DNA from: an uncultured Actinomycetes bacterium
GTDB lineage: Bacteria; Actinomycetota; UBA4738; HRBIN12
DNA: 64,000 bases
Reading direction: 5' to 3'
Assembly (NCBI GenBank): GCA_963786805.1
Contig: CAWBAK010000004.1
Coordinates: forward strand, 455,813-519,812
Shown here: positions 9,165 to 25,849 of the stretch, one piece after another
Layout: every line of letters starts with the position of its first letter
How positions within the stretch are numbered: the stretch's first letter is position 1
Translations under genes and position numbers: made by a program
The notes under the pieces: model-generated
What the model was told of the DNA's origin: nothing
The model's input: the letters and a program-made list of their open reading frames with translations, nothing else
Database searches by the model: none

Positions 9165-10396
9165 TCAGAGCTCACACGCGCGCGTGAACGCTCCCTGCGC
9201 GCCACGGACGCACGTGTCGATCCCCGAGCCGCCGTCGAGCAGGTCGTACTCGGGACCTCCGTTCAGGAGGTCGTCGCCCTGGTCCCCGTGGATCACGTCG
9301 ATCCCGAACTGCCCCTCGACGGTGTCGTTCCCCCGTCCCCCGAAGACGAGGTCGTTTCCGAGCCCGGCACTCACGACGTCGTCGCCCCCGTGCGCGCAGA
9401 TCACGTCGTTCGCGTCGGTGCCTCGGAGATCCGGGTCGCTCACGCCCGCCCCCTCGATCGTGCAGATCGGGAGCGGCTGCCAGTCCGGAGACAGGTCGGG
9501 AGCCGGGTCCTGCGTCAGTCTCGTGAGGAACGTGCCGTCCGGATGGATCGACCAGATGTCGATGTTGCCCTCGCCGATCTGGAACGAGACGAACGCGATG
9601 GTCGTTCCGTCCGGCGACCACGAGGGATCGAAGTCCATGAAGGACGCGCTCGACGTCAGATTGGTCTCGATGCCGGTGAACACGTCGATCGTGATGATGT
9701 CCGACGTTCCCTTCGAACAGCAGCGCTCGACCGCGATCCGGGTGCCGTCCGGCGACCACGAAGGGTTGGCGTCGATGTCGGAGTTCACCGTGAGGGCGTG
9801 CTCTCCGGTCCCGTCCGCGTTCATCACGTAGATCTCGGGGAACCCCCCGTCGCGGTTCGACGTGAACGCGATCCTCGTGCCGTCCGGCGACCACGCGGGC
9901 GAACGATCGGCCGAACCCGAGGGCTGGGTGGTGAGCTGAGCGCGGGCGGTCCCGTCGGCCTTGACGACGAAGATCCGGAACGGGCCGCTCCCCCTGGTCC
10001 GCGCCGCGTAGACGATCTTCGTGCCGTCGGGCGACCACGACGGGTCTCGCTCCGGGAACGGCGTTCTCGTGATCCGCACACGCGCCTTCCCGTCGGACGT
10101 GGCGGTCCACAGGTCCGATCTGCCGCTCTGCGGCAGTGTTCGGACGAACGCGATCCGCCGGCCGTCCGGCGACCATGCCGGCTGCGAATCGGCGATCCCG
10201 TCGTTCTCGGTCAGCGGCGCCGGGTTCTCTCCCGTTGCGTCGAGGGTGAACAACTCGGCATCGCCGTCACGATCGGAGCGGAACGCGAGCATCCGTTGGA
10301 AGACGGCCACAGTGCACTCTGCGCGCTCGCCGGCGGCATCGTGGCGACCGTCAGGGCGCAGATCAGCAGCAGCATGAGACCGGTGGCTCGACGCAT
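9165..10396 (-). CDS. secreted TolB-like beta-propeller (PD40 repeats) fused to RTX calcium-binding repeats; N-terminal frameshift
   Basis: Body (table ORF 9165..10490) has about 7 WSPDG..IAF PD40 blades, then GGDDVVSAGLGNDLVFGGRGNDTVEG..GDQGDDLLNGG nonapeptide repeats. A strong signal peptide MRRATGLMLLLICALTVATMPPASAQ with SD AAGGA starts at 10396 but is one base out of frame with the body (shift ~10300-10320). Confidence 0.7.
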
Positions 10397-10419
10397 GGAG
10401 TCCTTTAGGATGTGTCGCC

Positions 10420-11605
10420 GTGAAACCTACCACCCGTCGTTCGGCGTTCCTGGCCGCCGCACTCGCGTGCTCTGGTGGCGTTGGCCGCAACCGCGCTCGC
10501 AGAGGCGCGCGATCCGAACGAGGAGCCGCGTCCGCTCCGCCCGATCGTGAAGACGCGGAAGATCGCTCCGGGCCTGCTGTTCACCCGGATCATCGAGAGA
10601 CGACCGCCGCGGCGTACCTTCGTCCTGAAAGCCGATCTCTCCCGGCCACTCACGGTGGACATGACCTTGGCCGGTCCGGCGATGCCGAGCTCGCGCACGA
10701 CGAGCGACATCGCGAAGTCCCACGATGCCCTCGCCGCCACCAACGGCGACTTCAGCGTGCCGGGCGTTCGCCCCGTCCACCTGTTCGCGCAGGACGGCGA
10801 CATCCTGCACACGGCCGCGCAGGGCCCGATGTTCGCCCTGCGACGCGACGAAACGGGCGCGTACGTCGGCACGCCCGAACTCGAGATCGCGGTCACCGAT
10901 CTGGACAGCGGACAGACGTTCGATCTGGACCGTTGGAACCGCGGTTCGCCTACCCCGGGAGAGATCGCGGGTTTCTCCCCCGTCGGCGGCACGCTCGAGC
11001 TCACTCCGCCGTTCGCCTGCTCGGTCCGGCTGCTGCCCGACGGCCCTCTTTCGTTCGACGCCGGCGGGACGGGCGTAGTCCGCGCGTTCCACGTCGACGT
11101 CGCCGAGTGCTCCTCCGAACCGATGCCCCGCAAGGGCGGTGTGGTCCTGTCGGCGCCCCCCGCGACGGACGAGGCGACCCAGCTCCTCGCCATGACGCCG
11201 GGAACGCCGATGCGACTCCGATGGTCCCTCGGCTGGGAGAACGTGTACGACGCGATCGGCGGCATGCCCATCCTCGTCGAGGACGGCCGGGTCGTCGCGG
11301 AGGGCTGTTCGAGCGCGTTCTGCCGACGCAACCCGCGGACCGCGATCGGCTGGACGGCGAGCGGGCGCGTTCTGTTGGTCGTTATCGACGGGCGCCAGCC
11401 CCGCTGGTCGGTCGGCTCCGCGCTCGGCGAGCTCGCCAAACTGATGGTCGACCTCGGTGCGGTGTACGCCCTGAACCTGGACGGAGGCGGAACCAGCGCG
11501 ATGTGGGTCGACGGCGAGCTCGTGAACCGGCCCTCGGACGGGCAGCAGCGGGTCACGACCACTTCGGTGCTGGTCCTGCCCGGCAACGATCCCGGAGAGG
11601 TGTGA
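10420..11605 (+). CDS. phosphodiester glycosidase family protein (DUF2233/NAGPA-like), secreted; frameshift inside signal peptide
   Basis: Body is ORF 10475..11605 (..NGDFSVPG..LNLDGGGTSAMWVDGELVNRPSDG). The signal/lipobox MKPTTRRSAFLAAALACSGG begins at GTG 10420 in another frame; both merge into one hydrophobic leader if one base is corrected near 10465-10475. Confidence 0.65.
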
Positions 11606-11638
11606 ATCCCTCCGAGGCCCTCACCTCTGCCTTCCCGA

Positions 11639-13028
11639 TCAAGCGTTGAACGCCACAGGAGACCTGGCGCGGGGGCACACGTCACTGCCCAAGACCAGCT
11701 TGCGAGCGACCGAGCGGTACGCGCCGCCTCGGTCGGGGATCCGCTCCCGATAGAGACCGGCGGCGTCCGTCGTCGCCAGCTCGACCGTCCGCCAGTCGCC
11801 GGAGACACGCCGCTGGATCCGGACGGTGACGTTCCGGAAGCAGCTGGCGAATCCGTCCGAAGCAGAGACCATTCCGCGCGCCACGAGGTGACGGCTGAGG
11901 GCAAGCGTGATGGATCGAGCGTGCACCGTGGCCGTGACGGTGAAGTCCGTCGCGCTCGTGCCGGTCCCGCTCGCGTTCGTCACGGTGATCCGGCCGGTCG
12001 TCGCTCCGACCGGCACGACGGCGGTGATCCTCGTGGACGAGACGACGTTGAAGCTGCTCGCCGCGGTTCCGTTGAACCTCACCGAGGTCGTCCCCGTGAA
12101 GTTCGTCCCATCGATCGCGACGGTCGTCCCGCTGGGACCGCTGGTGGGCGAGAACGACGTGATCGTCGGCGACCCGGTCGGCGTCACCGTGAAGTTGCCC
12201 GTGCTCGTCGTCGGTCCCGCCGGGCGTGGTCACGCTGATCCGGCCAGTCATGGCACCGGATGGCACCACGGCGGTGATCTGCGTCGGGGAGTTGACCGTG
12301 AAGTTGGTCGCGCTGGTGTTCTTGAACTTCACCTCCGTTGCGCCGGTGAAGTTCGTCCCCGTGATGACCACCGAGGTGCCCACAGGGCCGGAGGTCGGAA
12401 CGAACGAGGTGATCGTCGGCGCCGCCGCCGCGCCGGTCACCGTGAAGTCCTGGTTGCTGGTCGCCGTCCCGCCCGGCGTGGTCACGCTGATCCGACCCGT
12501 CGTCGCGCTGTTCGGCACGGTGGCGGTGAGCTGGGTGCCGGAGGGATTCCACGAGAACGTCGTCGCGTTCGTGAGGTTGAACTTGACCGCCGTCGTTCCC
12601 ACGAGGTTCGAGCCGTTGATCGTGACGGAGGTCCCGACGGCTCCACTTGTTGGGGAGAAGTTCGTGATGCTCGGAGCGCACGACGAGGAGACCGTGAAGT
12701 TGTCGGTGCTCTCGCCCGAGCCGTCCGGCGTCGTGACCAAGATCCTCCCGCTCGTGGCGCCGGCGGGCACGACGGCGGTGATCGAGTTGGGCGAGCCCGT
12801 GAAGGTCGTCTGATCGACGCCGTTGAACTCAACCAGGGTGGCACCCTGGAAGTGGCTGCCGGAGATCGTGATCGAGGTGCCGACCGGGCCACACGCGGGC
12901 GTGAACGCACCGACCGTGGGCGCCGGGGCCGCTTCGGCAACAGGCGCAACGGAAAGGCTCAGCACGACGACCGCCAGCGACACCGAACCGATGAGGCGGC
13001 GGGGCAGCGAGCGACTCGAAGGACTCAT
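11639..13028 (-). CDS. cell-surface protein with tandem IPT/TIG domains; frameshift ~12200
   Basis: ATG 13028 with GGGAGG SD 4 nt upstream; MSPSSRSLPRRLIGSVSLAVVVLSLSVAPVAEA signal; at least five repeats of ..PTSGPVGTSVTITGTNFTGAT.VKF..T.AT.FTV.S.T.ITAVVP.GATTGRI.VTTPGG spread over ORFs 11682..13040 and 11639..12187 (different frames). Confidence 0.7.
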
Positions 13029-13121
13029 TTCGCCTCCCAAGTGAGGCGATAAAGCCTAGCCGCTCTCCTCCGAGGCACACAAGACGAAACCCACTTTCGC
13101 CCACCGCACGGTGAGCGCGGC

Positions 13122-13857
13122 TTACGCGGCCGCAGAGAGCGTCACGTAGTTCGCCCGCGCGCTCTCTGTGTAGAGGGCGTACGCCTCGTCGGACTGGAGG
13201 TATGCCGGGACGTATCCGAGGATCCGCTCGTACCTGGCAGCCTCGAACTCCCGCGCGGACGCGAGGCTCCACCCCGCGTTGTTCCGTAGCTCTTCGAGGA
13301 GGTCCGTGCCGATCACCTCGGTGCTCCCGAACATGGCGGACCCGATCTCGTGACCTAGGACGACACCGGTCGCGAGGTCGACGACCGCATCCCCGTTCCG
13401 GATCACCGCGACGCGCAAGGGATCGAAGAACGAGTTCCTCGTGATGCCGAAGCGGTCAGCTGCCGCCTGTGCCAGAACGAGCTGTCTTGGAGAGCCGAGG
13501 CCGGCCGCACGAGACAGGACCGCATCCCCGCGCGCCGATACGAACAGGCCCACCGTCGTCAGTTGCCGAACGAATGCGGGAGTGAGCTGCGACGCTGCTT
13601 GCCCGTGCCCGGACATCGCCTCGCTTGGGCTCCGGTTCCGAGAGTCCCGCCTGCGCCGAGGGCTGCGCCTCGGCCGGAACCACCTCCTGGCTGGAGCCGC
13701 CGACAGGAAACGAGAGGTCCTCGAAGGGGACCGGCACCGAAAACGTCGGGGCGGTCCCTCCATCCGGAATCGCCCGCGCCATCAACGGTACCGTCATCAA
13801 CAGGCCGAGCAACAGGATCATGGTTGGGCTGACCGACGTACGCGACCGAAGTTCCAT
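13122..13857 (-). CDS. secreted hypothetical protein; frameshift ~13620
   Basis: ATG 13857 with GGAGGAGGG SD; MELRSRTSVSPTMILLLGLLMTVPLMARA signal and Pro/Glu-rich linker in ORF 13456..13959; conserved-looking C-terminal domain (..VIRNGDAVVDLATGVVLGHEIGSAMFG..) in ORF 13122..13763, another frame. Confidence 0.5.
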
Positions 13858-14027
13858 GGACGGATCCCTCCTCCAACGCGCAAGACCGTTCAGTGTCCCG
13901 CCTTCGCTCGAATCGTGCAAGGGACCTCGTCTGCCGGTCGATTCGGCTCTCGATCTCAACCAGGCGCGTGCGGGAATACCGACCGACCCCCGGCACAGGC
14001 CGGGGGTCGGTCGAAACGTACCGACGG

Positions 14028-15773
14028 TCAGTTCTCGCAGCCCGCGATCGAGTCGCTGCCCGGGCCTCCGTTGCAGGTGTCGTTGCCCGGACCGCCGTTG
14101 ATCGCATCGTTCCCTCCGCCGCCGCGGATGTTGTCATTCCCGGCGCCACCGCGGAGGCCGTCGTTACCAGAGCCACCCTTCAACGCGTCGTCGCCGCCGC
14201 CGCCGAGAACGGTGTCGTTGCCCGCCCCCGCTCTGACGGTATCGCGGCCGCCACCGCCTCGTGCCGTGTCGTCACCAGCGCCGCCGCGCAGAGTGTCGTC
14301 GCCATCTCCACCGGACAGCGTGTCGTTACCGGCTCCCCCGGCGAGCGTGTTGGCGGAGCCGTTCCCGACGAGCGTGTCAGCGAACGCCGAGCCCGTCACG
14401 TTCTCCACGGTGGTGAGGACGAGGGTGTCTGTCCCCTGGCCGGTCGCGACGCCCGTCGCGAGATTCACGTTGACGGCAGCAGCAGCAGCACCGTAGTGCG
14501 CGACATCCGTGCCGTTGCCGCCGTTCATGATGTCGTTCCCGTTGCCTCCGACCAGCCGGTCGTTGCCGTCGTCGCCGTTCAGGGTGTCGTCCCCGTCGCC
14601 CCCGTCGATCGTGTCGTCGCCGACACCCCCCGAGATCACGTTGTTGCCCGTGCTGCCGGTGAGGAGGTCGGCGCCGGAGCCACCGGTCAGGTTCTCCGTG
14701 GTCGTGATGGTGTCGGTCCCCGCGCCGACCGTGTTCTGGGCGGCCACGACCGCAAGGCTCACCGTAACGGCCGCGGCCGACGTGGAGTAGCTGGCCGTGT
14801 CCGTTCCGATGCCGCCGTTGATCCCGTCGTTGCCGAGATCACCGATCAGCGTGTCGTTGCCATCGTCGCCGTTCAGGGTGTCGTCGCCTGCTCCACCGTT
14901 GATCACGTCGTCGCCGGCGGCACCCGAGATGACGTTGTTGACGGTGCTGCCTGTCAGGATGTCTGCTGCCGAGCCACCCGTCAGGTTCTCGACGTTCGTG
15001 ATCGTATCGCTCCCCGCGCCTCCGGTGTTCTGCGCCGTTGTCGTCGCGAGGTTCACGGTCAGGGCGGCAGCGATCCCAGTGTACGTCAGCGTATCGGTCC
15101 CGGCGCCCCCGTTGAGCGTGTCCGCGTCCGTTCCGGTACCGCCGTTCAAGGTGTCGTTGCCGTTACCGCCCGTGAGGCTGTCGGCCCCGGCTTCGCCGTT
15201 GATCGTGATCGCGGTCGCGAACGTGGCACCGTTCACGCTGTCGTTACCACCGCCGGTGTTGACGGTGAAGTTCTCGATGCCCGCTTGGGTGATATCGGAC
15301 CCGTTCACCTCGAACGGAACGAACGTGATGGTGTCGACTCCTCCCGAGCCCGTGATCGTCAACGAGTCGGTCCCGCCGAGCAGGTCGATGTTGAAGTCGT
15401 CGTCGTCGTCGAACGAGCCGCCCGCACCACCGTCATTGATGGTGACGCTCTCGTTCCCGGCGGCGCCGTCCACATCGATCGTGCCGATGTCGGCGGAATC
15501 GTTGTTGTCGCAGTCCCCGTCCGCCTGGGGCGCGATGACGATGTCGCCGTTGGCGGCGAGCGAGAAGGTGACGGAATCGCCCGACGCCAGGTCGACATTG
15601 AGGACTTGATTCGGTGACACGCCCGTGGCTGCTTCGCAGGTCACCGCGGCCATGGCGGGGATCGCCGTTAGGCCGACGACGAAGGTCGCCGTGAGTACGG
15701 AGAACAAGAGCGCGCCGAGCCGCCTCGCAACCTTGCGCGGCCGAGTCGCACGGGCAGTAGCGTGAGCCAACAT
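14028..15773 (-). CDS. secreted RTX (hemolysin-type calcium-binding repeat) protein 1
   Basis: ATG 15773 with AAGGGAGG SD; signal MLAHATARATRPRKVARRLGALLFSVLTATFVVGLTAIPAMA; more than 25 GGxGxDxL/I nonapeptide repeats (GGAGDDTLNGDDGNDTLIG..). Confidence 0.8.
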   Translation of the reverse strand: MLAHATARATRPRKVARRLGALLFSVLTATFVVGLTAIPAMAAVTCEAATGVSPNQVLNVDLASGDSVTFSLAANGDIVIAPQADGDCDNNDSADIGTIDVDGAAGNESVTINDGGAGGSFDDDDDFNIDLLGGTDSLTITGSGGVDTITFVPFEVNGSDITQAGIENFTVNTGGGNDSVNGATFATAITINGEAGADSLTGGNGNDTLNGGTGTDADTLNGGAGTDTLTYTGIAAALTVNLATTTAQNTGGAGSDTITNVENLTGGSAADILTGSTVNNVISGAAGDDVINGGAGDDTLNGDDGNDTLIGDLGNDGINGGIGTDTASYSTSAAAVTVSLAVVAAQNTVGAGTDTITTTENLTGGSGADLLTGSTGNNVISGGVGDDTIDGGDGDDTLNGDDGNDRLVGGNGNDIMNGGNGTDVAHYGAAAAAVNVNLATGVATGQGTDTLVLTTVENVTGSAFADTLVGNGSANTLAGGAGNDTLSGGDGDDTLRGGAGDDTARGGGGRDTVRAGAGNDTVLGGGGDDALKGGSGNDGLRGGAGNDNIRGGGGNDAINGGPGNDTCNGGPGSDSIAGCEN

Positions 15774-15905
15774 GTGGTCCTCCCTTAGTCCAAGACGCTG
15801 CGGGGGAAGCGCCCCCCGCCAGACCCCCAACCCTATGCATCGTTGCTTCCAGAATCAAGGCATGCCGAAGGGAACCTGAGACCGACCCAGAGCGTCTACA
15901 CCCGT

Positions 15906-16262
15906 TTACGCATTTCCGGCACCCGAAACTACCCGGCTCCTGCCAGACCATCCGGGCGGAAGCGGATCGCACAGCGACTGCGCCGTGGCGGGACGTCTCT
16001 CGACGACCCTACTGAACCGTTGGCGCGTGATCAGGTTCTGCAGCTCATACGGATCCTCGTCGTATCGGTAACTCCTCCTCTCCCGTCGTGAGCCGTGTAT
16101 AGAGGTCGTTCGCCGTGCGGAACGAGCAAAACGGCGGCGCCCTCCCCTCGAGGCCTCGCCGAACAGTCCCGTCCGATAACCGACCTCGTTCAGCCACGTC
16201 GCGAGCGTCGAGGAGTCGTCGAAGGCCGCGAAGCCGCCGCTCGGGCCGTCGTTCCCGTACAC
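15906..16262 (-). pseudogene. possible sulfatase gene remnant
   Basis: Stop-free ORF in the 620-bp gap between the two RTX genes. It contains sulfatase-like ..DDSSTLATWLNEVGYRTGLFGE.. joined to a C-terminal-like ..YRYDEDPYELQNLI.. in about 118 aa, consistent with a collapsed arylsulfatase. Confidence 0.3.
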
Positions 16263-16332
16263 CCCATTGGGAGTGCAGGAACACGATCCCGCGCTTCATC
16301 CGCACTCCCGACGAGACGAGGGCCTTAGACAA

Positions 16333-16362
16333 GGAATCGGCCCCCTTTCGGGGGCCGATTCC
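16333..16362. terminator. perfect 13-bp stem / 4-nt loop hairpin (GGAATCGGCCCCC-TTTC-GGGGGCCGATTCC), likely terminator of RTX gene 2
   Basis: Lies 31 nt downstream of the RTX2 stop (16394) on the minus strand; followed by TTTGCGTT on the plus strand and UUGUCUAA on the minus strand. Confidence 0.45.
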
Positions 16363-16393
16363 TTTGCGTTCTGCGGTGCTACGCGTTTGGTCC

Positions 16394-18211
16394 TTAGACC
16401 AGACGAGCCGCCTGCGGAGCCCGAGGGTTCCCTCGTGTCCCGCAGCTCCGCCGGATCTCGACCTGGCTGCAAGTGTCGTTGCCCTTGCCGCCGTTGCCGA
16501 CGTCCGTGCCGGAGCCACCGAACAGCCGGTCGTTGCCGGCAGCACCACGGAGGGTGTCGTCGCCATTGACGCCGCGAAGCACGTCGTTGCCCTTGCCACC
16601 CTTCAGTGTGTCGTTCCCGCTGAAGCCGGTCAGCGTGTCGTTACCGCCGCGGCCGTTGAACAGGAAGTTGACCGTGCCGCCGCCCGCGAACGGGCCGCCG
16701 GTGATCTGGTCGTTGAACTGGGAGCCTACGACGATCTCGACGATGTCGCCGAAACCATCATCGCCTTCGCCGCTGGCGAACCCGAGGCTCAGGTCGACGT
16801 TGACACCGTTGGCCGAGTTGATGAAGCTCACTCGGTCGGCGCCGGTTCCACCGGTGAAGGTGTCGTTGCCCTCACGGCCGACCAGCGTGTCGTTGCCCGC
16901 GAAACCACTCAGGATGTCGTCGCCGACACCACCATCGAGGAGGTTGCGCACGTCGTTACCGAGGAGCGTGTCGTTCGACGAGCCACCGATCGCATGGTCC
17001 AGGCTGTCAGCCGTGAACGGTCCGAGCGGAGCGACGCCGTTGTCCAGCGCATCCAGGTCGATCAACTGGCCCGAGGTCTTCGCGGACGCGTCGACCAGGT
17101 CGATCCCAGCCCCACCGACGAACGTGTTGGTGGTCGGGTCGTCCCAGATCAGGACGTTGCCGGCCGCTGCCCCGACGAAGTTGGTCGGGCCGTCGAACGT
17201 GTCGGCACCCTGACCCGTGGCGGTACCGAGCGCCGGGGTGATCGTCATCGCGGCCGACGAGGTCGACCAGTCGATCGTGTCACCAGCGTCGCCGGTGACA
17301 TCGTCGTCGCCGTCACCCGGAGTGTAGGCCGAATCCCCACATCCACCATCGTCCAGCGTGTCGGCCCCAGTACCGGTGATGACGATCTCGAAGCAGTCGA
17401 TGGAGTCGACCTCTTCTCCCGCGTCATCGTTGTCACCGTCGGCGTTGGCATCACGGCCCGCGTCGCTCCCGTTCAGGACGAACGTGGAGGTCGTGCGGGT
17501 CGCGTAGCTGAGCGTGTCCACGCCGCTGCCGCCGCTGACGTCGCCGTCATCGGCCGTGCCCGGAGACAGGACGTCGTCGCCGTCGTGGCCGTGCAGACGG
17601 TCAACCACGAAGGTCAATGCGCTCGCGTCCCACACGTCGTCTCCGTCGCAGCCCTCAGCGTCGTATTGCTCGACCCCGAGGACCTCACCGAGGCCGCCGT
17701 TCAGGTTGAACGTCGTGTTCGTCAGGACGACCGTGTTGTCCTGGTCGCAGTTGACGAAGATCCCCAGCAGGTCGGTCGTGAGCGCCGGGTTCGCTCCGAG
17801 GTCGATGTGCCACGCGATCGCGGTACTGAACGTTCCGCCGCTGGCCTCATCGATGTCGAATTCCTCGGCGTCGCTCGGCGCGCCGAGAACGACGATGGAG
17901 ACGGTGTTCGAGTTCGACGCGCTACCACAGGCGACGAAGCCGGTGACTCCGTCGTCGAACAGGATCGCCCCCGCCGGCGCCGCCGGATCGAGGTCGTCCG
18001 CAGTCGTCTCCACAGCCACGGCCGCAGTGGCGCCCGGGTCGATCGTGATGTTGATCGTGTCGGTGGCGGGGTTGTACGTGCAGGCTGTTACGGCCGACGC
18101 TACCCCGGCTCCGACGATCGCCAGGGCCTGGAAGCCGACGAGAGCGAAGGTGGTTACCAGCGCTCTCGAGGCCATGCCCCGGCGAGATTTCCCTTTACGG
18201 AGGAAGCTCAT
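16394..18211 (-). CDS. secreted RTX (hemolysin-type calcium-binding repeat) protein 2
   Basis: ATG 18211 with AAAGGAG SD 7 nt upstream; signal [40 protein letters not shown]; Asp/Gly-rich N-terminal region, then GGxGxD repeats ([59 protein letters not shown]). Confidence 0.8.
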
Positions 18212-18470
18212 AAATGGGCTCCTTTCTCTCCTCCGTCCAAAACGAACAAGTTCCGCGCAGGGACGCAAAGACCCTGCAGGGGGAAGTCCGGGCGGATGCT
18301 ATGCCCGTGAACCTGGCGAGTCAAATACGCCAACCTCCCCTTGCCACACCCAGCTTCCGGTGCTGGGGCGCCGCGTCCCCCCTTTCGGGCGTCCATACGC
18401 GGGAGCGGCCTTCGCCGCTTCCGGTCTAGATAACGGCGCTCGTATCGAAAGGTTGCTGGGGGCCAAGGTT

Positions 18471-20060
18471 TTAGGCAGCCGCGTCGCTCAGGCTCATCGA
18501 CCCGCCGTACATCGTGCCATCCACCCAGACCCTCAGCGTGGCTGAGACGAAGCCTCGGCTGGGGAGGCCCGCGACGGGGGTCTCTGGGTTCAACAGGTCG
18601 AAGGTTCCCTCGAAGCGATACACCGTGGAGCCGTCAGCATTCGGTGCCGTGTCGGCCAGGGTGGCAACGCCACCGTAGAGATGGATCCCCGCGGCCGACG
18701 TGAGCCCGACTCGGAATTCGATCTGTCCGCCCGTGGGGTCAACCCCGCCCCATTGCTGGAGAGAGAACGGCCACGTGAGATCTCCTACCGAGTCCCGGGC
18801 GCCTCCCTTGACGACCTGGGAGAACTGGAATCCTCCATCGGTCCGCTCAACCTGCGACGATGCTCGCGAAGACCCATCACACGTGCAAACTTCAACGGAT
18901 TCGGTTGAAGTGCCGAAGTCGAAGGACCAGGCCGGCGCGGGTGGCACGGTCGGCTCGGGCGAGGGCTCCGGCTCGGGCGACGGCTCGGGGGATGGGGCCG
19001 GAGCCGGGGGTACCGTCGGCTCCGGGGAAGGAATCACGACGGGAGTCGGCTCCACCGGATCGGGATCGACGCGGTCGCGGTCTCTCGGCACTCGCTCCCG
19101 CACCGGCGGAGACAGGACCTCCGCCTTCGGCTCGAGCGGTGGCGCGTCGATGACCTCTGGGGCGGCGATGGGGGCTTCCGCCCGGTCGACCCGCTCGCCG
19201 CGGTCCTTCACGATCGTGGCCGCGCCGACGGTGACGCCGCCGGCCACCAACAGAGTCATCCCGGCGGCAAGGACCCGCTCGCCGAATCCGGCCCCGCTCG
19301 CGACGACCGCGGGACTGGACGCGACGCTCGACACGACCTCGGGGGTGGCCACCTGGGCGACCTGTCCGACGTGGGCAACCCGATCGACGACGCGCTTGGC
19401 GAGGTGCGTGGCCTGGAGCAGCCAGAGGAGCGGAAGCACCGCGATGGCGGCCAGTCCGCCCTTCTCGGTCACGGCGAGGAGCCAGCGGCGCCGGAAGCTG
19501 CCTTTGGCCCGATGGATCAGGGCCTTGGCCTGCGCGGGCGACATCTCCATGACCTCGCCGATCTCCCGGTGCGAGCGCCCCTCAAGCTCGCGAAGGACGA
19601 GCGCGGTCCGGTGGCTCTCGGGAAGGCCAGACAGGACCGAGAGCACCAGGTCCCGTTCGATGAGCCGTTCGACGGCATCTTCCGGGCCCTGGGCGGGATC
19701 GACCCGCTCGAACTGCTCAAGCGGCTCGTCGTCTACCAAAGGACGGCGCGTGCGCGTTCGGATCGCGTCCAACGACACGTTCGTCGCGATCCGTCCGATC
19801 CACGGCTGGAGCGCATACCTGCCGTTGAATCGGTAGAGGCCCTGGAAGACCCGGATCATGGTCTCCTGCAGGGCCTCGTCGGCGTCGTGCGCATTGGGTA
19901 GGAATCGCTGGCACACGTGCCTGGCGAGCCCGGAGTACCGACGGTGGATCTCGACGAAGGCCTCGGGGTGCCCGGCCTGGAAGTCGAGAACGAGCATGCG
20001 GTCATCCAGGGCTTTGTAATCGCCCTGTCCGTTGCGTAGGTCGGTAACCCTGATGACCAC
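18471..20060 (-). CDS. ECF (sigma-70 family) sigma factor fused to transmembrane segments, Pro-rich linker and C-terminal extracytoplasmic-type domain
   Basis: GTG 20060 preceded by AAAGGGAGA SD. Sigma region 2 (LVLDFQAGHPEAFVEIHRRY..ETMIRVFQGLYRF) and region 4 (LPESHRTALVLRELEGRSHREIGEVMEMSPAQAKALIHRAKGSF) are followed in the same frame by hydrophobic stretches (GLAAIAVLPLLWLLQA; GMTLLVAGGVTVGAATIV), a PEPSPEPEPSPEP linker and a ~150-aa Gly/Thr-rich domain. Confidence 0.7.
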   Translation of the reverse strand: MVIRVTDLRNGQGDYKALDDRMLVLDFQAGHPEAFVEIHRRYSGLARHVCQRFLPNAHDADEALQETMIRVFQGLYRFNGRYALQPWIGRIATNVSLDAIRTRTRRPLVDDEPLEQFERVDPAQGPEDAVERLIERDLVLSVLSGLPESHRTALVLRELEGRSHREIGEVMEMSPAQAKALIHRAKGSFRRRWLLAVTEKGGLAAIAVLPLLWLLQATHLAKRVVDRVAHVGQVAQVATPEVVSSVASSPAVVASGAGFGERVLAAGMTLLVAGGVTVGAATIVKDRGERVDRAEAPIAAPEVIDAPPLEPKAEVLSPPVRERVPRDRDRVDPDPVEPTPVVIPSPEPTVPPAPAPSPEPSPEPEPSPEPTVPPAPAWSFDFGTSTESVEVCTCDGSSRASSQVERTDGGFQFSQVVKGGARDSVGDLTWPFSLQQWGGVDPTGGQIEFRVGLTSAAGIHLYGGVATLADTAPNADGSTVYRFEGTFDLLNPETPVAGLPSRGFVSATLRVWVDGTMYGGSMSLSDAAA

Positions 20061-20221
20061 AGTTCTCCCTTTAACGGAACGCCGGGTGATCGTCAAAGGT
20101 TGCACGCAGAACGGCTATTCTCGCCCGCCCTCGGTCCCAACCAGCGTAACAGGAGCCCAGAGCCACCGGCCTCGGCTGACCTGGGGACGCTCATCGGAGG
20201 CAGGGAGCCGGCGGAGCCGGC

Positions 20222-21667
20222 CTAGGGGGTCGGGTCCAGGATCAGCGGGTCCCGCGGTTGCTGCCGGAAGTTGAAAGCGCCGGTGAGATCGCCGAGAACC
20301 TCGACCTCCTCGCGCACCGTCGGGCGTGAGTCCGGGCGGTCGAGCGTCGCCGGATCCAAGCGCTCCCCATCGAGGAACCGATCCTCGATCAGCTTCAGGT
20401 AGGCGTCGAAGCTCAGCATCTGGTGGTCGATGTAGCCCTGCCTGGCGAACGGACTGATGACCAGCGAGGGAACGCGCAGGCCGTAGCCGGCATCGTCGAC
20501 CCTGGGCGGCAGCACGTGGTCGTAGAAACCGCCCCAGTCGTCCCAGGTGAGGAAGATCGCGCTCGACTCCCAGGCATCGCTGTTGCCGACCGCGTTGATC
20601 AATCGCGTCACGTACGCCTGGCCCGCGTCGATCCCGCGCCCCGAGGACGGGTGGTCGCTCGCGCTTCCCGGGATGACCCAACTCACCGAGGGAAGGCTCC
20701 CGTCTCGAACCTGAGCAAGGAAGTCGTCGTGGGTCAGGATGCGGTCGAGCTGGTCGGTCTCGTGCAGCGTCGTGAAGCCCGGCAGCGGGTTGCGGGTGGA
20801 CGGCGTGTTCTCGCCGCGAAGGTCGTCGCACGGCGGGAACACACAGGTCCCGTCGGCCACGTAGTACCCCCACGACACGTCCTCTCGGTCCAGAAGCCAC
20901 GTGATGTCGGTCCAGGCGTAGATCGGCCGCTCGCCGTACTCCCACCGCTGTTCGGGAGTCTTCAGGTCCACGTTCGAGATGCACGACATCGGGTCCCGCG
21001 GGTCGGAGCAGACGGCCGACCATCCGGACACGAGGAACAGGTGGGCCGGCAACGTCCAGCCGTCGGTGGGGCCGAACATCCGGTCGTGGAGAACGAACTC
21101 GTCCGCGTAGCGCCAATAGTTGGGGATGTTCCGCCGGTCCAGGTAGCTCATGACGTCGGGCTGCAGATCGGGACCGACGAAGGGACGGCACTTCGCCGAG
21201 CGCCGCGCGACGCACCACTTCTCCGCTTCCGGGAGCGCCGCGATGTGGCCCTGCATCGATCCGCCGTCGATCGAGCGGACGGACGCCTTCTGGTTGTGCG
21301 GGCCTCCTTTGTATTCCTGCGCGCGCGAGTGATACGGGCAGGAGGGGTGCCCCAGGATGGGATCGGGGATGCAGTTCACCGGCTCGCCGTCGACGATCGT
21401 GAAACCGTCGGCTCCCGGATAGGTCCCGAAGTAGTGATCGAAGGACCGGTTCTCCTGCACGATGAAGATCAGGTGATCGAGCTTGCGGAGGCCGGAGCCG
21501 GGCCCGACGACCTCGCCACTCGCGTTCCGGATCGCCGCGTCGACGGCTGAGCCCGAGGACGCGAGGATCGCGCTCGGCAGCACGACGGCCAGCGCAACGA
21601 GCGCGCCGATGATCGGCGCACGCAAGCTCTCGATCCGCGAGGGCACGCGGAGCCGATCGATCCTCAT
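20222..21667 (-). CDS. secreted phosphoesterase family protein (phospholipase C / acid phosphatase-like)
   Basis: ATG 21667; signal [38 protein letters not shown]; [21 protein letters not shown] is the hallmark of the phosphoesterase (PlcN/AcpA) family. Only the last 482 codons of table ORF 20222..23620 are used. Confidence 0.85.
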
Positions 21668-21862
21668 CGAGGCCTCGACTCTAAGCGCACGCACGTTCGG
21701 GCGGGTGTGGGGCGACCTGGTGACTTGGCCACTTCGAGCGTATCGGCCGCCTGGCGCCGGAACCGTAGGCGGCGGTGTGGGCCGAGGGGGCAACCACGGC
21801 CGGCCGCAGCCTAGGACGTTGCGCGGTAGAGGGGTGCCGGATGCCGCCGTACGGTCAGTTCG

Positions 21863-22912
21863 ATGCACCTCGTCCCCACCACCCGACGTTTGGTGGCGGT
21901 CGCCCTCGCGGCGGCCCTGGTCGTTGGCGTCGCGCCGGGTGTGGTTGCCGGTGCGGACGACGAGGTGGATCAGGTCCTCAAGGAGCTCCACAAGACCAAG
22001 GATCGGATCCGGGCCCGCTCCCACAAGCTCCGCCTGCTCCAGCGAGACCTCAACCGGCTCGCGACCTCCATCTCGCAGAACGAGGCACAGATCCACGAGG
22101 CCGACGAGCGGATGGGGGTGCTCGAGGGCGAGATCGACGTGCTGGAGGACGAGAACCTCGTGCTCGAGGGCCGGCTCGGGGACCGCAACCGCGAGGCCTA
22201 CATCCTGGGACCGGGCGCGCCATTCCTCTACTTGCTGACCGCGACCTCGGCCGAGGACGCGGCGGCGCGGATGTCGATCCTCACCGAGATGAACCGCCGG
22301 GACGCCGAGCTCGCGGTCGCGGTTCACCAGAACACGCAACGGCTCGGACGCGCGCGGGTCGAGCTGGTCCGGCTCCAAAGGACCCGGCAGCTCTCGATCC
22401 AGCAGCTCGAGCTCGACAAGGCCGAACTCCGGGAGCGACTCGCCGACGTCCGGAAGCTCTACGCGAGCCTCCAGATCATCAAGGAAGAGATCCTGTACCG
22501 GCTCTCCCGGATCCGGCCCTTCGCCGTGTGTCCGATCCAGGGTCCGCACGCGATCGCGAACGACTTCGGCATCTGGGTCCATCGCTCGAAGGAGCGGGGC
22601 GGAGACCACGTCCACCAGGGCAACGACATGATGTCCCCGATGGGAACCCCGGTCGTCGCGCCGTTCGATGGCGTCGCGGTCGCCGCCCCGAACAAGCTGG
22701 GCGGCCTGGCGGTCAAGGTGTTCGGCGACTACGGATACGTGTACATGGCCCACTCGTCCAGCTACGGCCAGCTCGGAGCGGTCGAGACCGGCGATGTGGT
22801 CGCGTACGTCGGAGCCACCGGAAACACGGGCGCGCCACACGTTCACTTCGAGTGGCATCCGGGCAACGGCGCGGCGGTCGACCCCTACCCGTTCCTGATG
22901 AAGGTCTGCTAG
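21863..22912 (+). CDS. M23 family metallopeptidase with N-terminal coiled-coil (murein hydrolase activator-like)
   Basis: 349 aa; signal [31 protein letters not shown]; long coiled-coil; C-terminal LytM domain [36 protein letters not shown]. Confidence 0.85.
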
Positions 22913-24248: not shown

Positions 24249-24612
24249 ATGAAGAGGTCACATGCCCGTATCGCCGTGGTCGCGGCAACCGCGATCGCGC
24301 TGGTGGTCCCCGCCATCGCGGCCGAGGCGCAGCGTCAGCCGGCGCGGCCTGGGCCCGCTCGGCACCGCCGCGAGGGTCAGGATGGTGGACGGCAATCGTT
24401 TCCGGCCGGCCACCTTGACCGTCGCCCGCGGCACGAGGGTGCGATGGGTGAACAGCGACAACGTCTCGCACACCACCACGTCGAACACGGGGGTCTGGGC
24501 GGCGACGCTTTCCCCTGGTGAGCGCTTCGCGCGCCGGTTCCGCCGCGCGGGCGAGTTCAACTATCGGTGCACGATCCACACGGGGATGATCGGGAGGATC
24601 GTCGTCAACTAG
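24249..24612 (+). CDS. secreted cupredoxin (plastocyanin/amicyanin-like blue copper protein); frameshift ~24340
   Basis: ATG 24249 with GGGAGGTGG SD; signal MKRSHARIAVVAATAIALVVPAIAAEAQ in the frame of ORF 23745..24521. The mature domain VRMVDGNRFRPATLTVARGTRVRWVNSDNVSHTT..YRCTIHTGMIGRIVVN (His..Cys-x2-His-x2-Met copper ligands) is in the frame of ORF 24262..24612. Confidence 0.65.
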
Positions 24613-24646
24613 CAGCGCCTCTCTATCATCCGGTCAGGCGAGACGG

Positions 24647-24994
24647 GATGGGAGCGGCGATGGCCGAGCTCGGCGCTGGGGTCTACGTCACCAGGATCGA
24701 TACCGACGACTGGGAGCCCGACGAGGAAGTTGGTGGCTCCGCCCACATGCTGTTCGACGAGGCAGACGATTCCAAGGTCGGTCTGTGGAAGGCTGAGCGG
24801 GCCCGGTGAACCCGACCGAGGTGGAGCTCCCGGCCAGGGAGACGATCATCGTCCTCGAGGGCAAGGTGCGCATCGAGATCGAAGGGAGCCCGACGCTCGA
24901 GCTGGGATCGGGCGACCTGGTCTCGATCCCGAGGGCCGCCCGGATCACGTGGGCTCCCGATCCCGATTGCCGGGTGGTCTGGGTCTACTCGTGA
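24647..24994 (+). CDS. cupin domain protein (DUF861/cupin_3-like); frameshift ~24805
   Basis: N-half ..VTRIDTDDWEPDEEVGGSAHMLFDEADDSKVGLWKAE ends at TGA 24807-24809; C-half NPTEVELPARETIIVLEGKVRIEIEGSPTLELGSGDLVSIPRAARITW continues one base out of frame. Together they form one ~115-aa cupin. Confidence 0.6.
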
Positions 24995-25029
24995 GCTCGG
25001 CCGGGTGATCGTCGGTCGACGAACGCCGG

Positions 25030-25849
25030 CTAGGAGGCCGCTCGCTCGAGGGCTCGCCTCGCCGCCTGGCCGTTCAGCCGGACCGCGATCAAGATGGTCG
25101 TGAAGCTCACGGCCAGGAGCAGGGTCGCGATCGCGTTGATCACCGGCGTCAGACCGAATCGGATCCTCGAGTAGACGCGGATCGGGAACGTGACCGAGGT
25201 AGGCCCGGACGTGAAGAACGCGATGATGAACTCGTCGAAGGAGAGCGTGAAGGCGATGAGTGCGCCCGCTGCGATGCCGGGGACGATCAGGGGCAGCGTC
25301 ACTCGGAGGAAGGTCGCGGCGTTGCTCGCACCGAGATCGTGCGCCGCCTCTTCGATCGACCGATCGAAGTACGCGAGGCGCGTCCGGACGATCGCCGACA
25401 CGAAGATCATGTCGAACACGACGTGAGCGGCGATGACCGTGTGCAGCCCGAGGGCGACTCCCGCCAGGGTGAAGAACGACAGGAGGCCGATCGCCAAGCA
25501 CGATGTCGGGAACGACGGCCGGGAGGAAGAGGAGGCTGTCGAGCACCCGGCTCCGAACGGTCCGCTCGAGCCCGAGCGCAAGCAAGGTGCCGAGCACGGT
25601 CGAGATGACCGTCACGGCGAGGGCGACGAACACCGTGTTCTTGAGGGCATCGATCAGATCCTGGCTCCTCAGGAGCTCGCCGTACCACTCGGTCGAGAAC
25701 CCGCTCCAGCGCGTGGGCTGACCGCCTCGATTGAAGGACAGCACCACGATCACGAGGATCGGCAGGTACAGGAACCCGTAGACGAAGACGCTGCTCGCGG
25801 TCAGCAACGCGATCGCGCGTGCGCCCGGCCTACGTGACATGGGGCGCAT
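25030..25849 (-). CDS. ABC transporter permease (PotC-like); frameshift ~25500
   Basis: ATG 25849 (MRPMSRRPGARAIALLTASSVFVYGFLYLPILVIVVLSF..) in one frame; C-terminal two-thirds (..IGLLSFFTLAGVALGL..DLGASNAATFLRVTLPLIVPG..) in ORF 25030..25581. Confidence 0.7.

What the first reader, a model, noticed from the sequence alone, without database searches (positions are those of the whole stretch)
9165..22912. Dense block of secreted/surface genes with its own embedded ECF sigma fusion: candidate envelope-remodelling or Ca-binding surface-layer island
Within 13.7 kb almost every gene carries a Sec signal peptide with a strong SD. They are: a TolB-like propeller fused to RTX repeats; a phosphodiester glycosidase; a five-domain IPT/TIG protein; a secreted unknown; two large RTX proteins (about 580 and 605 aa, more than 25 GGxGxD repeats each, N-terminal Sec signals rather than the usual C-terminal T1SS signal); a sulfatase remnant; a PLC/acid-phosphatase-type phosphoesterase; and an M23 peptidase. 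In the middle sits a membrane-tethered ECF sigma fusion protein. No T1SS (ABC/HlyD/TolC) genes are present, so these RTX proteins are presumably Sec-exported calcium-binding surface or S-layer-type proteins. Several of the same genes carry the frameshifts, so the block may be strain-variable.
Basis: partly seen in the sequence, partly recalled or inferred. Interest (0 to 1): 0.7.

Follow-up and report, generated by a model that had tools for sequence, protein, structure and literature searches.

The report
Membrane-anchored sigma factor with RTX neighbours
This is a real gene neighbourhood, conserved in uncultured soil Actinomycetota, built around a membrane-anchored ECF sigma factor whose own promoter type recurs in front of only one neighbouring exported calcium-repeat (RTX) protein; it is a new variant of a known regulator type, not a foreign island or a block-wide regulon.

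Summary
The domain calls hold. The block contains a PD40 propeller with RTX repeats, NAGPA, four TIG repeats plus a tail domain, two RTX proteins (581 and 605 aa), a sulfatase remnant, a PF04185 phosphoesterase, an M23 peptidase and an ECF sigma fusion. After frame correction, eight proteins have signal-peptide-like N-termini. Three frameshifts are definite and one is probable.

In 55 non-redundant related loci, all from uncultured Actinomycetota MAGs, the order M23–(phosphoesterase/variable slot)–sigma–RTX_B–RTX_A–…–NAGPA–PD40-RTX is conserved. An RTX gene follows sigma in 25 of 26 loci.

GCAACC-N15/16-CGTT lies 43 nt before the sigma start in 41 of 54 loci and before RTX_B in 31 of 38. In the window it occurs only at those two places. 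RTX_A, and RTX_B as well, carry conserved housekeeping-type promoters.

The sigma protein is σ2–σ4, a conserved hydrophobic helix, a TM helix, a Pro-rich spacer and a β-barrel found only in this family. It has no zinc-finger anti-sigma motif.

The block sits in conserved core-chromosome context, so it is not an island. An S-layer role is untested.

Verdict: a new variant of the fused-extension ECF sigma factors, with a two-promoter local regulon. Interest is moderate.

The parts
9165..10396 (-). PD40 beta-propeller protein with a short C-terminal RTX block and a Cys-capped tail (about 410 aa after correction). The signal peptide MRRATGLMLLLICALTVATMPPASA is in a different frame from the mature part; the frameshift lies near 10296-10300.
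   Evidence: Pfam PF07676 5e-48 and PF00353 1e-13. TIGR02800 TolB scores 185 bits, below its cut-off of 343. Frames were read. Orthologues of 408-409 aa are intact in L002, L005 and L006. The gene is present downstream of sigma in 22 of 26 loci.
10420..11605 (+). NAGPA-family phosphodiester glycosidase, divergent from PD40-RTX. The two start codons are 23 nt apart. A frameshift lies inside the signal peptide, near 10440-10470.
   Evidence: PF09992 9e-36. N-terminus compared with L005 and L006 orthologues. Present in 20 of 26 loci.
11639..13028 (-). Exported protein with four IPT/TIG repeats and a C-terminal non-TIG domain (462 aa after correction). A 1-nt frameshift lies at 12211-12213.
   Evidence: PF01833. 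NF058597 CoaZ repeat, 4 stretches, 5e-36. Frames and DNA read. A TIG homologue lies in this neighbourhood in 7 of 26 loci, 6 of them among the 7 most distant.
13122..13857 (-). Unknown protein. A signal-peptide-like ORF with a strong SD starts at 13857. The conserved C-terminal part (about 164 aa, to 13122) is in another frame. This is either one frameshifted gene or two ORFs.
   Evidence: Six-frame reading and GC3 phase. No Pfam or NCBIfam hit. Only one homologue in the loci, L037, 43% identical.
14028..15773 (-). RTX_A: a 581-aa exported beta-roll protein with 21 GGxGxD motifs. It ends ...NDTCNGGPGSDSIAGCEN.
   Evidence: PF00353 1.5e-55, 9 stretches. Motif counts and signal-peptide features. 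Orthologues 47-57% identical in L001-L007. Conserved tail.
15830..15858 (-). Housekeeping-type promoter of RTX_A: TTGATT-N17-TAGGGT.
   Evidence: Conserved upstream of RTX_A orthologues. Exact position. The same pattern is at the equivalent place in L001, L002, L006 and L013.
15945..16262 (-). Degenerate sulfatase remnant in the RTX_B-RTX_A spacer.
   Evidence: tblastn with the L001 sulfatase (478 aa) gives three pieces (residues 92-135, 401-425 and 429-467) in two frames, E 3e-7 and 3e-6.
16394..18211 (-). RTX_B: a 605-aa exported protein. It has an Asp-rich N-terminal half with no known domain, an RTX beta-roll at about 355-594, 8 Cys, and the tail [13 protein letters not shown].
   Evidence: PF00353 2.4e-22. 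PDB sequence hits cover only the beta-roll. Orthologues follow sigma directly.
18296..18324 (-). Proximal housekeeping-type promoter (P2) of RTX_B: TTGACT-N17-TAGCAT, about 85 nt before the ATG.
   Evidence: Consensus scan. TTGAC(T/C)-N17/18-TAnnnT was found in 23 of 27 aligned leaders; the T, A and final T of the second hexamer are kept while the middle three bases vary.
18432..18456 (-). Distal ECF-type promoter (P1) of RTX_B: GCAACCTTT-N12-CGTTATCT, 15 nt after the sigma stop codon.
   Evidence: The motif is in this intergenic region in 31 of 38 eligible loci. It is the best PWM score in the whole window, 27.3 bits.
18471..20060 (-). ECF sigma fusion, 529 aa. Order of parts: sigma2, sigma4, a conserved hydrophobic helix (LAAIAVLPLLWL), a TM helix (VLAAGMTLLVAGGVTVGAA), a Pro-rich spacer, and a C-terminal beta-barrel of about 150 aa.
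20078..20103 (-). ECF-type promoter of the sigma gene: GCAACCTTT-N13-CGTT. The motif starts 43 nt before the GTG.
   Evidence: Present at about -43 in 41 of 54 loci, with a non-conserved spacer. PWM score 22.9 bits.
20222..21667 (-). Exported PF04185 phosphoesterase (PLC/acid-phosphatase family), 481 aa.
   Evidence: PF04185 3e-59. TIGR03396 and TIGR03397 both score below their cut-offs. Found upstream of sigma in 17 of 43 loci. Relatives carry a sulfatase, toxin-antitoxin pairs or an HNH gene in the slot between M23 and sigma, either in place of an intact phosphoesterase or beside it.
21863..22912 (+). Exported M23 peptidase with an N-terminal coiled-coil region, 349 aa.
   Evidence: PF01551 9e-14. 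Present upstream of sigma in 29 of 43 loci, and in 25 of the 31 with sigma identity of at least 44%.

Best explanation
The block is a vertically inherited, lineage-conserved chromosomal neighbourhood of an uncultured soil Actinomycetota clade. It is organised around a one-component ECF sigma factor.

Shown:
- The sigma protein is sigma2-sigma4 fused to a conserved hydrophobic helix, one robust TM helix, a Pro-rich spacer and a confidently predicted beta-barrel. The barrel occurs only at the C-terminus of this protein family.
- An ECF-type promoter, (A)GCAACC(T/C)T-N-(G)(A)CGTT, is conserved 43 nt before the sigma start. It recurs at the head of the next gene, RTX_B.
- RTX_B also has a conserved TTGACT-N17/18-TAnnnT promoter. 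RTX_A has TTGATT-N17-TAGGGT.
- No other gene of the block has the ECF motif.

Inferred:
- The barrel lies outside the cell and senses an envelope or environmental cue.
- The sigma domain is held inactive at the membrane, either by tethering or by the conserved hydrophobic helix acting as a minimal anti-sigma element.
- It is activated by proteolytic release or a conformational change, as proposed for ECF52/ECF53 and shown for IutY.
- Once active, it amplifies its own gene and boosts RTX_B above its constitutive level.
- RTX_A, RTX_B and PD40-RTX are Sec-exported calcium-binding beta-roll proteins that fold outside the cell.
- The remaining exported enzymes (NAGPA, phosphoesterase or sulfatase, M23, TIG protein) are long-standing neighbours, probably working on the same cell surface, but separately transcribed.
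For: - Domains.
- Family: 370 homologues, most full-length (about 515-550 aa), 44-81% identical among the 120 listed; 52 loci among GTDB species representatives, nearly all Actinomycetota MAGs.
- Synteny. Counts: an RTX gene downstream of sigma in 25/26 loci, PD40-RTX 22/26, NAGPA 20/26, M23 29/43, phosphoesterase 17/43.
- Promoter: window sites. Conserved in 41/54 loci (upstream of sigma) and 31/38 (upstream of RTX_B), with unconserved spacers. About 10 chance matches are expected in 1.6 Mb of both strands; 94 were seen, 42 of them assigned upstream of sigma and about 19 upstream of the first RTX gene (the expectation is my own calculation). A PWM scan of the 64-kb window finds only these two sites within the training range.
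- Housekeeping-type promoters. Relatives also have an intrinsic terminator after RTX_B.
- Barrel exclusive to this family: 72 hits among 1.84 billion representatives, always C-terminal. The six short hits I inspected are N-truncated copies of the same fusion.
- The closest solved sigma cores are SigW, M. tuberculosis SigE and RpoE.
- Precedent for fused membrane-anchored ECFs and proteolytic activation: PMC8999054, PMC5826349.
Against: - No experiment or transcript data exist. That this sigma, rather than another ECF in the genome, reads the GCAACC...CGTT promoters is inferred from position and from the usual autoregulation of ECFs. A second ECF sigma lies at 46406-47146.
- Topology is unsettled. 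The first hydrophobic helix scores 1.3-1.9 on a 19-residue Kyte-Doolittle window. If it also spans the membrane, the barrel would be cytoplasmic.
- There is no recognisable anti-sigma domain and no protease gene in the cluster, so the activation step is conjecture.
- RTX_B also has a housekeeping promoter, so its dependence on the sigma may be modest.
- Signal peptides were judged by a heuristic, not by SignalP. Several n-regions contain RR, so Tat export is not excluded.
Confidence: 0.6

Rival explanations
1. The whole 13.7-kb block is one co-regulated functional island. The embedded sigma drives all the exported genes, which together build or remodel a calcium-dependent surface (S-) layer.
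For: All members but sigma look exported. Linkage is conserved over deep divergence. RTX S-layer proteins are known in other phyla (PMC3034196). RTX_A has a strong SD and a conserved housekeeping-type promoter, which would suit an abundant protein.
Against: The ECF motif is at only 2 of about 11 genes. A PWM scan finds nothing else in the block. RTX_A and RTX_B have their own housekeeping-type promoters, and relatives have a terminator between them. The block is not an island: flanks are conserved, the window context is core chromosome, and there is no tRNA or integrase. No SLH or other anchoring domain was found. RTX_A has 4 Cys and RTX_B has 8, whereas S-layer proteins typically lack Cys (PMC3034196).
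Confidence: 0.12
2. The neighbours form a module for scavenging phosphate or sulfate esters and for turning over wall polymers. NAGPA would cleave GlcNAc-1-phosphodiester links in wall glycopolymers. The PF04185 phosphoesterase or a sulfatase would release the anion, and M23 would open peptidoglycan. The sigma would sense the starvation or envelope state.
For: A phosphoesterase or a sulfatase lies in the slot between M23 and sigma in many relatives. NAGPA is conserved in 20/26 loci. All are exported hydrolase families.
Against: This rests purely on family names. No Pho-box or shared promoter was found. The slot also holds toxin-antitoxin and HNH genes, so it behaves as a variable insertion site rather than a functional position. 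The reading does not explain the three RTX-bearing proteins, which are the most conserved neighbours.
Confidence: 0.1
3. The frameshifts mark real gene decay. The PD40-RTX / NAGPA / TIG / unknown end of the block would then be pseudogenised or phase-variable in this strain.
For: Four frame breaks lie within about 3.6 kb (10296-13620), against 2-3 candidates in the other ~59 kb of the window. Two of them separate a signal peptide from its mature protein.
Against: Codon-position GC signal stays strong across the breaks. There are no premature stops other than those the shifts cause. Each confirmed break is a single-base indel. Frameshift candidates exist elsewhere in the window, for example a split guanylate-cyclase/TPR gene near 42796. 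Related long-read MAGs show fragmented ORFs in the same genes, for example RTX_B in L001. Assembly indel error is the simpler reading.
Confidence: 0.2
4. The clustering of exported genes around the sigma is coincidental, and the sigma controls unrelated genes elsewhere.
For: Only one neighbour carries the motif. The genome-wide regulon is unknown.
Against: An RTX gene follows sigma in 25/26 loci, down to 31-44% sigma identity. The motif precedes it in 31/38 loci.
Confidence: 0.03

Closest known systems
ECF52 / ECF53 / ECF48 sigma factors of Actinobacteria (e.g. SCO4117 of Streptomyces coelicolor)
   Same: An actinobacterial ECF core is fused at its C-terminus to transmembrane helices, a Pro-rich spacer and an extracytoplasmic domain. 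There is no separate anti-sigma gene. Positive autoregulation and activation by proteolytic release have been proposed (PMC5826349, PMC8999054).
   Different: No zinc-finger (ZAS, PF13490) element lies between sigma4 and the membrane. The C-terminal domain is a closed beta-barrel with no Pfam model, not the carbohydrate-binding module of SCO4117. The promoter here is a clean GCAACC-N15/16-CGTT, whereas CSGYN-N17-SRHA was proposed for SCO4117. The conserved partner gene is an RTX protein.
IutY of Pseudomonas putida (ECF243), a sigma/anti-sigma fusion activated by regulated intramembrane proteolysis
   Same: A single polypeptide carries an ECF domain, a TM segment and an outside sensor. It is the only fused ECF for which release by proteolysis (Prc, RseP) has been demonstrated (PMC8999054).
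   Different: IutY belongs to FecI/FecR-type cell-surface signalling in a diderm. No FecR-like domain was detected here, and the host lineage is Actinomycetota.
RpoE / SigW / M. tuberculosis SigE-type ECF sigma factors
   Same: These are the best sequence matches for the sigma2-sigma4 core. The promoter architecture, with an 'AAC' -35 element and a 'CGT' -10 element, is the classic ECF type (own knowledge).
   Different: Those sigmas are about 190-260 aa and are controlled by separate anti-sigma factors (RseA, RsiW, RseA-Mtb). All NCBIfam equivalog cut-offs are missed by a wide margin.
RTX (repeats-in-toxin) exoproteins and RTX S-layer proteins of Gram-negative bacteria (HlyA, CyaA, serralysins, RsaA)
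   Same: They share the nonapeptide GGxGxD calcium-binding beta-roll, PF00353.
   Different: These proteins have N-terminal signal peptides, no non-repeat C-terminal secretion signal and no T1SS genes. They end in a conserved Cys-x(8-13)-Cys tail. RTX genes without T1SS were already noted in six Actinobacteria genomes in 2010 (PMC3034196), so this alone is not new.
Membrane-tethered one-component regulators with an outside beta-barrel ligand sensor (e.g. VtrA/VtrC of Vibrio parahaemolyticus)

Membership tests
ECF (group 4) sigma-70 factors | Sigma2 and sigma4 regions only, matching the ECF superfamily model | tested here: met
   PF04542 2e-13 and PF08281 7e-11. TIGR02937 scores 93.4 bits against a cut-off of 42.9. 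No sigma3 or sigma1 hit.
ECF (group 4) sigma-70 factors | Bipartite 'AAC' -35 / 'CGT' -10 promoter before its own gene (autoregulation) | tested here: met
   GCAACC-N15/16-CGTT lies at about -43 in 41/54 loci. That this sigma is the one that binds it has not been tested.
ECF52 (SCO4117-like) | Zinc-finger / ZAS anti-sigma element (PF13490) after sigma4 | tested here: not met
   No zf-HC2 hit at E <= 0.01. There is no Cys, and so no HxxxCxxC motif, in residues 200-300 of the 23 aligned sequences.
ECF52 (SCO4117-like) | TM helix or helices followed by a Pro-rich spacer | tested here: met
   Hydrophobicity peaks. Pro-rich, low-confidence segment at 297-392.
ECF52 (SCO4117-like) | C-terminal carbohydrate-binding module | tested here: not met
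ECF243 / FecI-FecR-type sigma/anti-sigma fusions (IutY) | FecR-like anti-sigma domain fused to the sigma | tested here: not met
   No FecR (PF04773) hit.
A named ECF group of the 2021 classification (ECF Hub) | Score against the group HMMs of the sigma core | not testable with these tools
   The group HMMs are not available, and the paper's supplements are not held.
RTX repeat (beta-roll) proteins | Tandem GGxGxD nonapeptides matching PF00353 | tested here: met
   RTX_A 1.5e-55, RTX_B 2.4e-22, PD40-RTX 1e-13. Motif counts.
T1SS-secreted RTX exoproteins | Uncleaved C-terminal secretion signal and linked ABC / MFP / TolC genes | tested here: not met
   The proteins end 12-25 residues after the last repeat. 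No ABC exporter, HlyD or TolC was found in the window or in the Pfam-annotated gene tables of L001-L007.
S-layer proteins | Cell-wall anchoring module (e.g. SLH) and, typically, no cysteines | tested here: not met
   No SLH or other anchor domain. RTX_A has 4 Cys and RTX_B has 8. Lattice formation itself cannot be tested here.
TolB | Full-length match to the TolB equivalog (N-terminal domain plus propeller, Tol-Pal context) | tested here: not met
   TIGR02800 scores 185 bits against a cut-off of 343. There are no tol-pal genes nearby. It is a PD40 propeller only.
Phosphocholine-specific PLC / Burkholderia-type acid phosphatase | Score above the equivalog or subfamily cut-off | tested here: not met
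   TIGR03396 scores 158 against 580; TIGR03397 scores 123 against 363. Only membership of the broad family PF04185 is established.
Genomic island | Absent from relatives, atypical composition, tRNA or integrase at the borders | tested here: not met
   The core is present and syntenic in relatives. GC is 0.65-0.70 in the block against 0.66-0.72 elsewhere. The nearest tRNAs are at 29990 and 51201. Only the TIG and unknown genes and the M23-sigma slot vary.

The most novel reading that the evidence does not exclude
The fused sigma factor may be a surface-state sensor. Its family-exclusive outside beta-barrel would monitor the Sec-exported RTX beta-roll proteins, or the free Ca2+ they depend on, at the surface of an actinobacterium. 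It would then switch on an inducible paralogue (RTX_B) beside a constitutive one (RTX_A). That would be a self-contained sense-and-replace circuit for a calcium-dependent protein coat in an uncultured soil lineage, run by an ECF sigma that lacks any recognisable anti-sigma domain.
Probability: 0.1. Interest if true: 0.7.

Novelty: new variant of a known kind. Interest (0 to 1): 0.45.

Why it matters
ECF sigma factors with fused membrane-spanning extensions are the least understood class of bacterial signal transducers. Only one, IutY, has a demonstrated mechanism.

This family offers a clean test case:
- a compact architecture with no zinc finger;
- a confidently predicted sensor barrel found nowhere else;
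- a sharply defined promoter;
- a single conserved local target.

The sigma-to-promoter link and the role of the extension could therefore be tested in a heterologous host, even though the organisms are uncultured. The family also documents a deeply conserved set of Sec-type RTX proteins in Actinomycetota, whose function is unknown. The practical value is moderate. It refines ECF classification and gives a defined orthogonal sigma/promoter pair, rather than overturning anything.

Tried and rejected
1. A block-wide regulon. Exact-pattern and PWM scans of the window found ECF-type sites only at 18428-18459 and 20074-20106. The next best site (16.2 bits, 45399-45430) lies inside an HNH/DUF222 gene.
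2. A structured RNA in the 200-240-nt RTX_B leader. Rfam at E <= 1 gave nothing relevant. RNAalifold on 15 short leaders gave no consensus pairs.
3. An anti-SD switch. The idea was that the conserved C-run sequesters the SD in the P2 transcript and the G-run of the P1 transcript releases it. Mean unpaired probability of the SD was 0.62 (long) against 0.53 (short). Only 16 of 23 loci went in the expected direction, and the window itself went the other way. Rejected.
4. A conserved upstream ORF in that leader. No ORF was conserved in frame, length or peptide.
5. The island hypothesis. Composition, tRNAs and flanking synteny all argue against it.
7. Assignment to a numbered ECF group. The supplements of the classification paper are not held.
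8. My first strand calls from GC2 were wrong for the TIG gene, because of its Thr/Ser/Gly-rich composition. Homology and six-frame reading corrected them.

Full report
**What is in the sequence.**
The window is about 69% G+C, so raw ORF lists are mostly noise. I combined codon-position GC, six-frame reading and Pfam/NCBIfam. The resulting gene map for 9165-22912 is:
- PD40 propeller + RTX, 9165-10396(-)
- NAGPA phosphodiester glycosidase, 10420-11605(+)
- four TIG repeats plus a tail domain, 11639-13028(-)
- an unknown protein, 13122-13857(-)
- RTX_A, 581 aa, 14028-15773(-)
- a degenerate sulfatase remnant, 15945-16262(-)
- RTX_B, 605 aa, 16394-18211(-)
- an ECF sigma fusion, 18471-20060(-)
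- a PF04185 phosphoesterase, 20222-21667(-)
- an M23 peptidase, 21863-22912(+)

**Frameshifts and signal peptides.**
Three genes are broken by single-base frameshifts.
- In PD40-RTX the break lies between the signal peptide and the mature protein, near 10296-10300.
- In NAGPA it lies inside the signal peptide, near 10440-10470.
- In the TIG gene it is at 12211-12213.

The unknown is either a fourth case or two ORFs.

After correction, eight products have a basic n-region, a hydrophobic core and AxA-like sites. This rests on a heuristic, because no SignalP was available.

RTX_A has 21 strict GGxGxD motifs. RTX_B has only 7, so 'more than 25 each' is overstated.

No T1SS component was found among the 42 window ORFs and frame segments I scanned, which include all the long high-GC3 ones. 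The adjacent transporter is a binding-protein-dependent importer. The rest of the window is core housekeeping: mfd, eno, rplY, prs, glmU, metG, ksgA and an Rpf-like protein.

**Relatives and linkage.**
The sigma fusion has 370 homologues, most of them full-length (about 515-550 aa) and 44-81% identical among the 120 listed. All come from metagenomes or MAGs labelled Actinomycetota. A scan of GTDB species representatives returned 52 loci. Many are long-read soil MAGs. The two closest (about 95% and 93% protein identity) are cut off inside sigma.

Gene tables for five relatives, and tblastn of all window proteins against every locus, show one recurring order: UDPGT, cupredoxin, OsmC, a coiled-coil protein, M23, a variable slot, sigma, RTX_B, RTX_A, small variable genes, NAGPA, PD40-RTX, then PPIase and a 365-aa protein.

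Counting loci with enough flank:

| Neighbour | Position relative to sigma | Loci |
|---|---|---|
| RTX gene | downstream | 25/26 |
| PD40-RTX | downstream | 22/26 |
| NAGPA | downstream | 20/26 |
| TIG homologue | downstream | 7/26 (6 of the 7 most distant) |
| M23 | upstream | 29/43 |
| phosphoesterase | upstream | 17/43 |

The window carries the same outer flanks: PPIase at 5418-5918, the 365-aa protein at 4299-5327, cupredoxin at about 24352-24606 and UDPGT at 28035-29336. The block is therefore an old, vertically inherited neighbourhood in core-chromosome context. It is not an island. There is also no tRNA at its borders and no marked compositional break.

What varies is the slot between M23 and sigma. 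Depending on the locus it holds the phosphoesterase, a sulfatase, toxin-antitoxin pairs, a sugar isomerase or an HNH/DUF222 gene. The stretch between RTX_A and NAGPA also varies.

**The promoter motif.**
- 20078-20103, starting 43 nt before the sigma GTG;
- 18432-18456, 15 nt after the sigma stop and about 220 nt before the RTX_B ATG.

Across relatives, (A)GCAACC(T/C)T-N-(G)(A)CGTT sits at about -43 in 41 of 54 loci. It is in the sigma-to-RTX_B spacer in 31 of 38 loci. The bases between the two elements are free to vary, which is the signature of a bipartite promoter. In L003 the RTX_B-like gene is displaced behind another gene, and the motif has moved with it.

A position-weight matrix built from 75 sites scores the two window sites at 27.3 and 22.9 bits. 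The next site in 64 kb scores 16.2 and lies inside an unrelated gene. Nothing comparable precedes RTX_A, TIG, the unknown, PD40-RTX, NAGPA, the phosphoesterase or M23.

RTX_A instead has a conserved TTGATT-N17-TAGGGT promoter at 15830-15858. Several relatives have an intrinsic terminator between RTX_B and RTX_A.

RTX_B has a second, proximal promoter, TTGACT-N17-TAGCAT, at 18296-18324. It was found in 23 of 27 aligned leaders. The T, A and final T of its -10 hexamer are kept while the middle bases vary.

So the local ECF regulon is the sigma gene plus RTX_B. Both RTX genes also look constitutively expressed.

**The sigma protein.**
Alignment and AlphaFold give the following layout, in the numbering of the 544-aa ORF:
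- sigma2, residues 35-120;
- sigma4, residues 141-200;
- a strongly conserved short hydrophobic helix, GGLAxIAxLPLLWL, with invariant Gly and Pro;
- an amphipathic helix;
- one robust TM helix, 274-296;
- a variable Pro-rich spacer;
- a C-terminal all-beta domain.

phmmer of this domain against 1.84 billion representatives finds 72 proteins, always with the domain at the C-terminus. The long hits are the same fusion. The six short hits I inspected are N-truncated fragments of it. The barrel is thus exclusive to this family.

There is no zinc-finger anti-sigma motif and no FecR domain. The sigma core is closest to SigW, M. tuberculosis SigE and RpoE, but far below every NCBIfam equivalog cut-off.

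Whether the first hydrophobic helix crosses the membrane is unresolved. Its 19-residue hydropathy is 1.3-1.9, against 1.8-2.3 for the TM helix. If it does not cross, the barrel is outside the cell.

**Most likely mechanism.**
Shown:
- the architecture of the sigma protein;
- the conserved promoter pair;
- the conserved neighbours;
- the separate housekeeping-type promoters.

Inferred:
- The protein is a one-component, membrane-anchored ECF sigma, and its outside barrel senses an envelope or environmental cue.
- The sigma domain is kept inactive by tethering, perhaps helped by the conserved hydrophobic helix acting as a minimal anti-sigma element or as a protease substrate.
- On activation it amplifies its own transcription and raises RTX_B above its basal level.

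This follows the model proposed for ECF48/52/53 and demonstrated for IutY (PMC8999054, PMC5826349).

The three RTX-bearing proteins share a conserved C-terminal tail, D-x-C-x(8-13)-C-E, and have no C-terminal T1SS signal. This fits Sec export followed by calcium-driven folding outside the cell. RTX genes without T1SS in Actinobacteria were already noted in 2010 (PMC3034196).

**What I could not support.**
- An S-layer role is untested. The cysteines and the missing anchor domain count mildly against it.
- A phosphate or wall-polymer scavenging theme for the hydrolases rests on family names only.
- The frameshifts are more concentrated here (four in about 3.6 kb) than elsewhere. But candidates exist outside the block, including a split cyclase/TPR gene near 42796 and another near 25500. 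Related long-read MAGs also show fragmented ORFs in the same genes. Assembly indels are the simpler explanation, and only the reads can decide.
- Ideas about a riboswitch, an anti-SD switch or an upstream ORF in the long RTX_B leader were tested and dropped.

**Verdict.**
The linkage and the motif are real. The 'island' and the block-wide regulon are not supported, and the S-layer role remains untested.

The system is a new variant of the fused-extension ECF sigma factors. It has no ZAS element, carries a family-exclusive barrel, and has an RTX protein as its conserved local target. It is confined to an uncultured Actinomycetota lineage. Interest is moderate.

Noticed in passing
window 46406-47146 (+) and 47140-48696 (+): A second, ordinary-length ECF sigma factor (Sigma70_r2 + r4_2). 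It is followed, with overlap, by a 518-aa ORF with no Pfam hit, which may be its anti-sigma factor. It is an alternative candidate reader of ECF-type promoters in this genome.
   Followed up: no
window about 42796 (-) and about 25498-25600 (-): Frameshift candidates outside the block. A guanylate-cyclase domain (42401-43852) and a TPR part (41374-42927) lie in different frames of what is one 1066-aa gene in relative L002. An ORF pair, 25033-25611 and 24686-25903, also changes frame.
   Followed up: partly
window 24509-28785 compared with L028; L028 6368-7717: Compared with the closest relative (91% nt identity), the window carries about 4.3 kb extra between cupredoxin and UDPGT, including a solute-binding protein at 26754-27878. 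L028 carries a 1.35-kb DUF222/HNH endonuclease gene between the phosphoesterase and sigma, where the window has 45 nt. The window's own DUF222/HNH copy is at 45225-46415.
   Followed up: partly
window 10396-10420; also L003 and L006: The PD40-RTX and NAGPA start codons are divergent and only 23 nt apart (25 nt in relatives). A TAGGAT hexamer lies 8 nt before the NAGPA GTG, and there is no SD. NAGPA may therefore be translated from a leaderless mRNA, with the PD40-RTX promoter inside the NAGPA coding region.
   Followed up: no
C-termini of the genes at 9165, 14028 and 16394 (-); L002, L003, L005, L007: All three RTX-bearing protein families end in a conserved tail, G-x-D-x-C-x(8-13)-C-E(N/L). 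This may be a disulfide cap for the last beta-roll turn. RTX_A and RTX_B also have a conserved Cys pair just after the signal peptide.
   Followed up: partly
window 18212-18431 (-): The RTX_B leader carries a conserved G-run (AAGGGGGG) between the two promoters and a conserved C-run (CTTCCCCC) at the 5' end of the proximal transcript. Neither a consensus structure, an SD-masking effect nor an upstream ORF could be supported.
   Followed up: yes
L005 7100-9272; L006 7681-8210: In relatives, the slot between M23 and sigma holds toxin-antitoxin pairs (PIN/Phd, ParE/Phd, FitA-like) and phosphoesterase or sulfatase remnants. It appears to be a hotspot for insertion and decay next to the sigma gene.
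   Followed up: no
L024 + L029 (one MAG); L044 + L047 + L059 (one MAG): Some MAGs carry two or three paralogous copies of the sigma fusion. At least two of these copies (L029, L059) are followed by an RTX-like gene. The module has therefore duplicated as a unit in some lineages.
   Followed up: no
window 53018-54052 (-): An RpfB-like protein (DUF348 x2, G5, DPBB lytic transglycosylase) lies next to ksgA. This is a typical actinobacterial arrangement.
   Followed up: no
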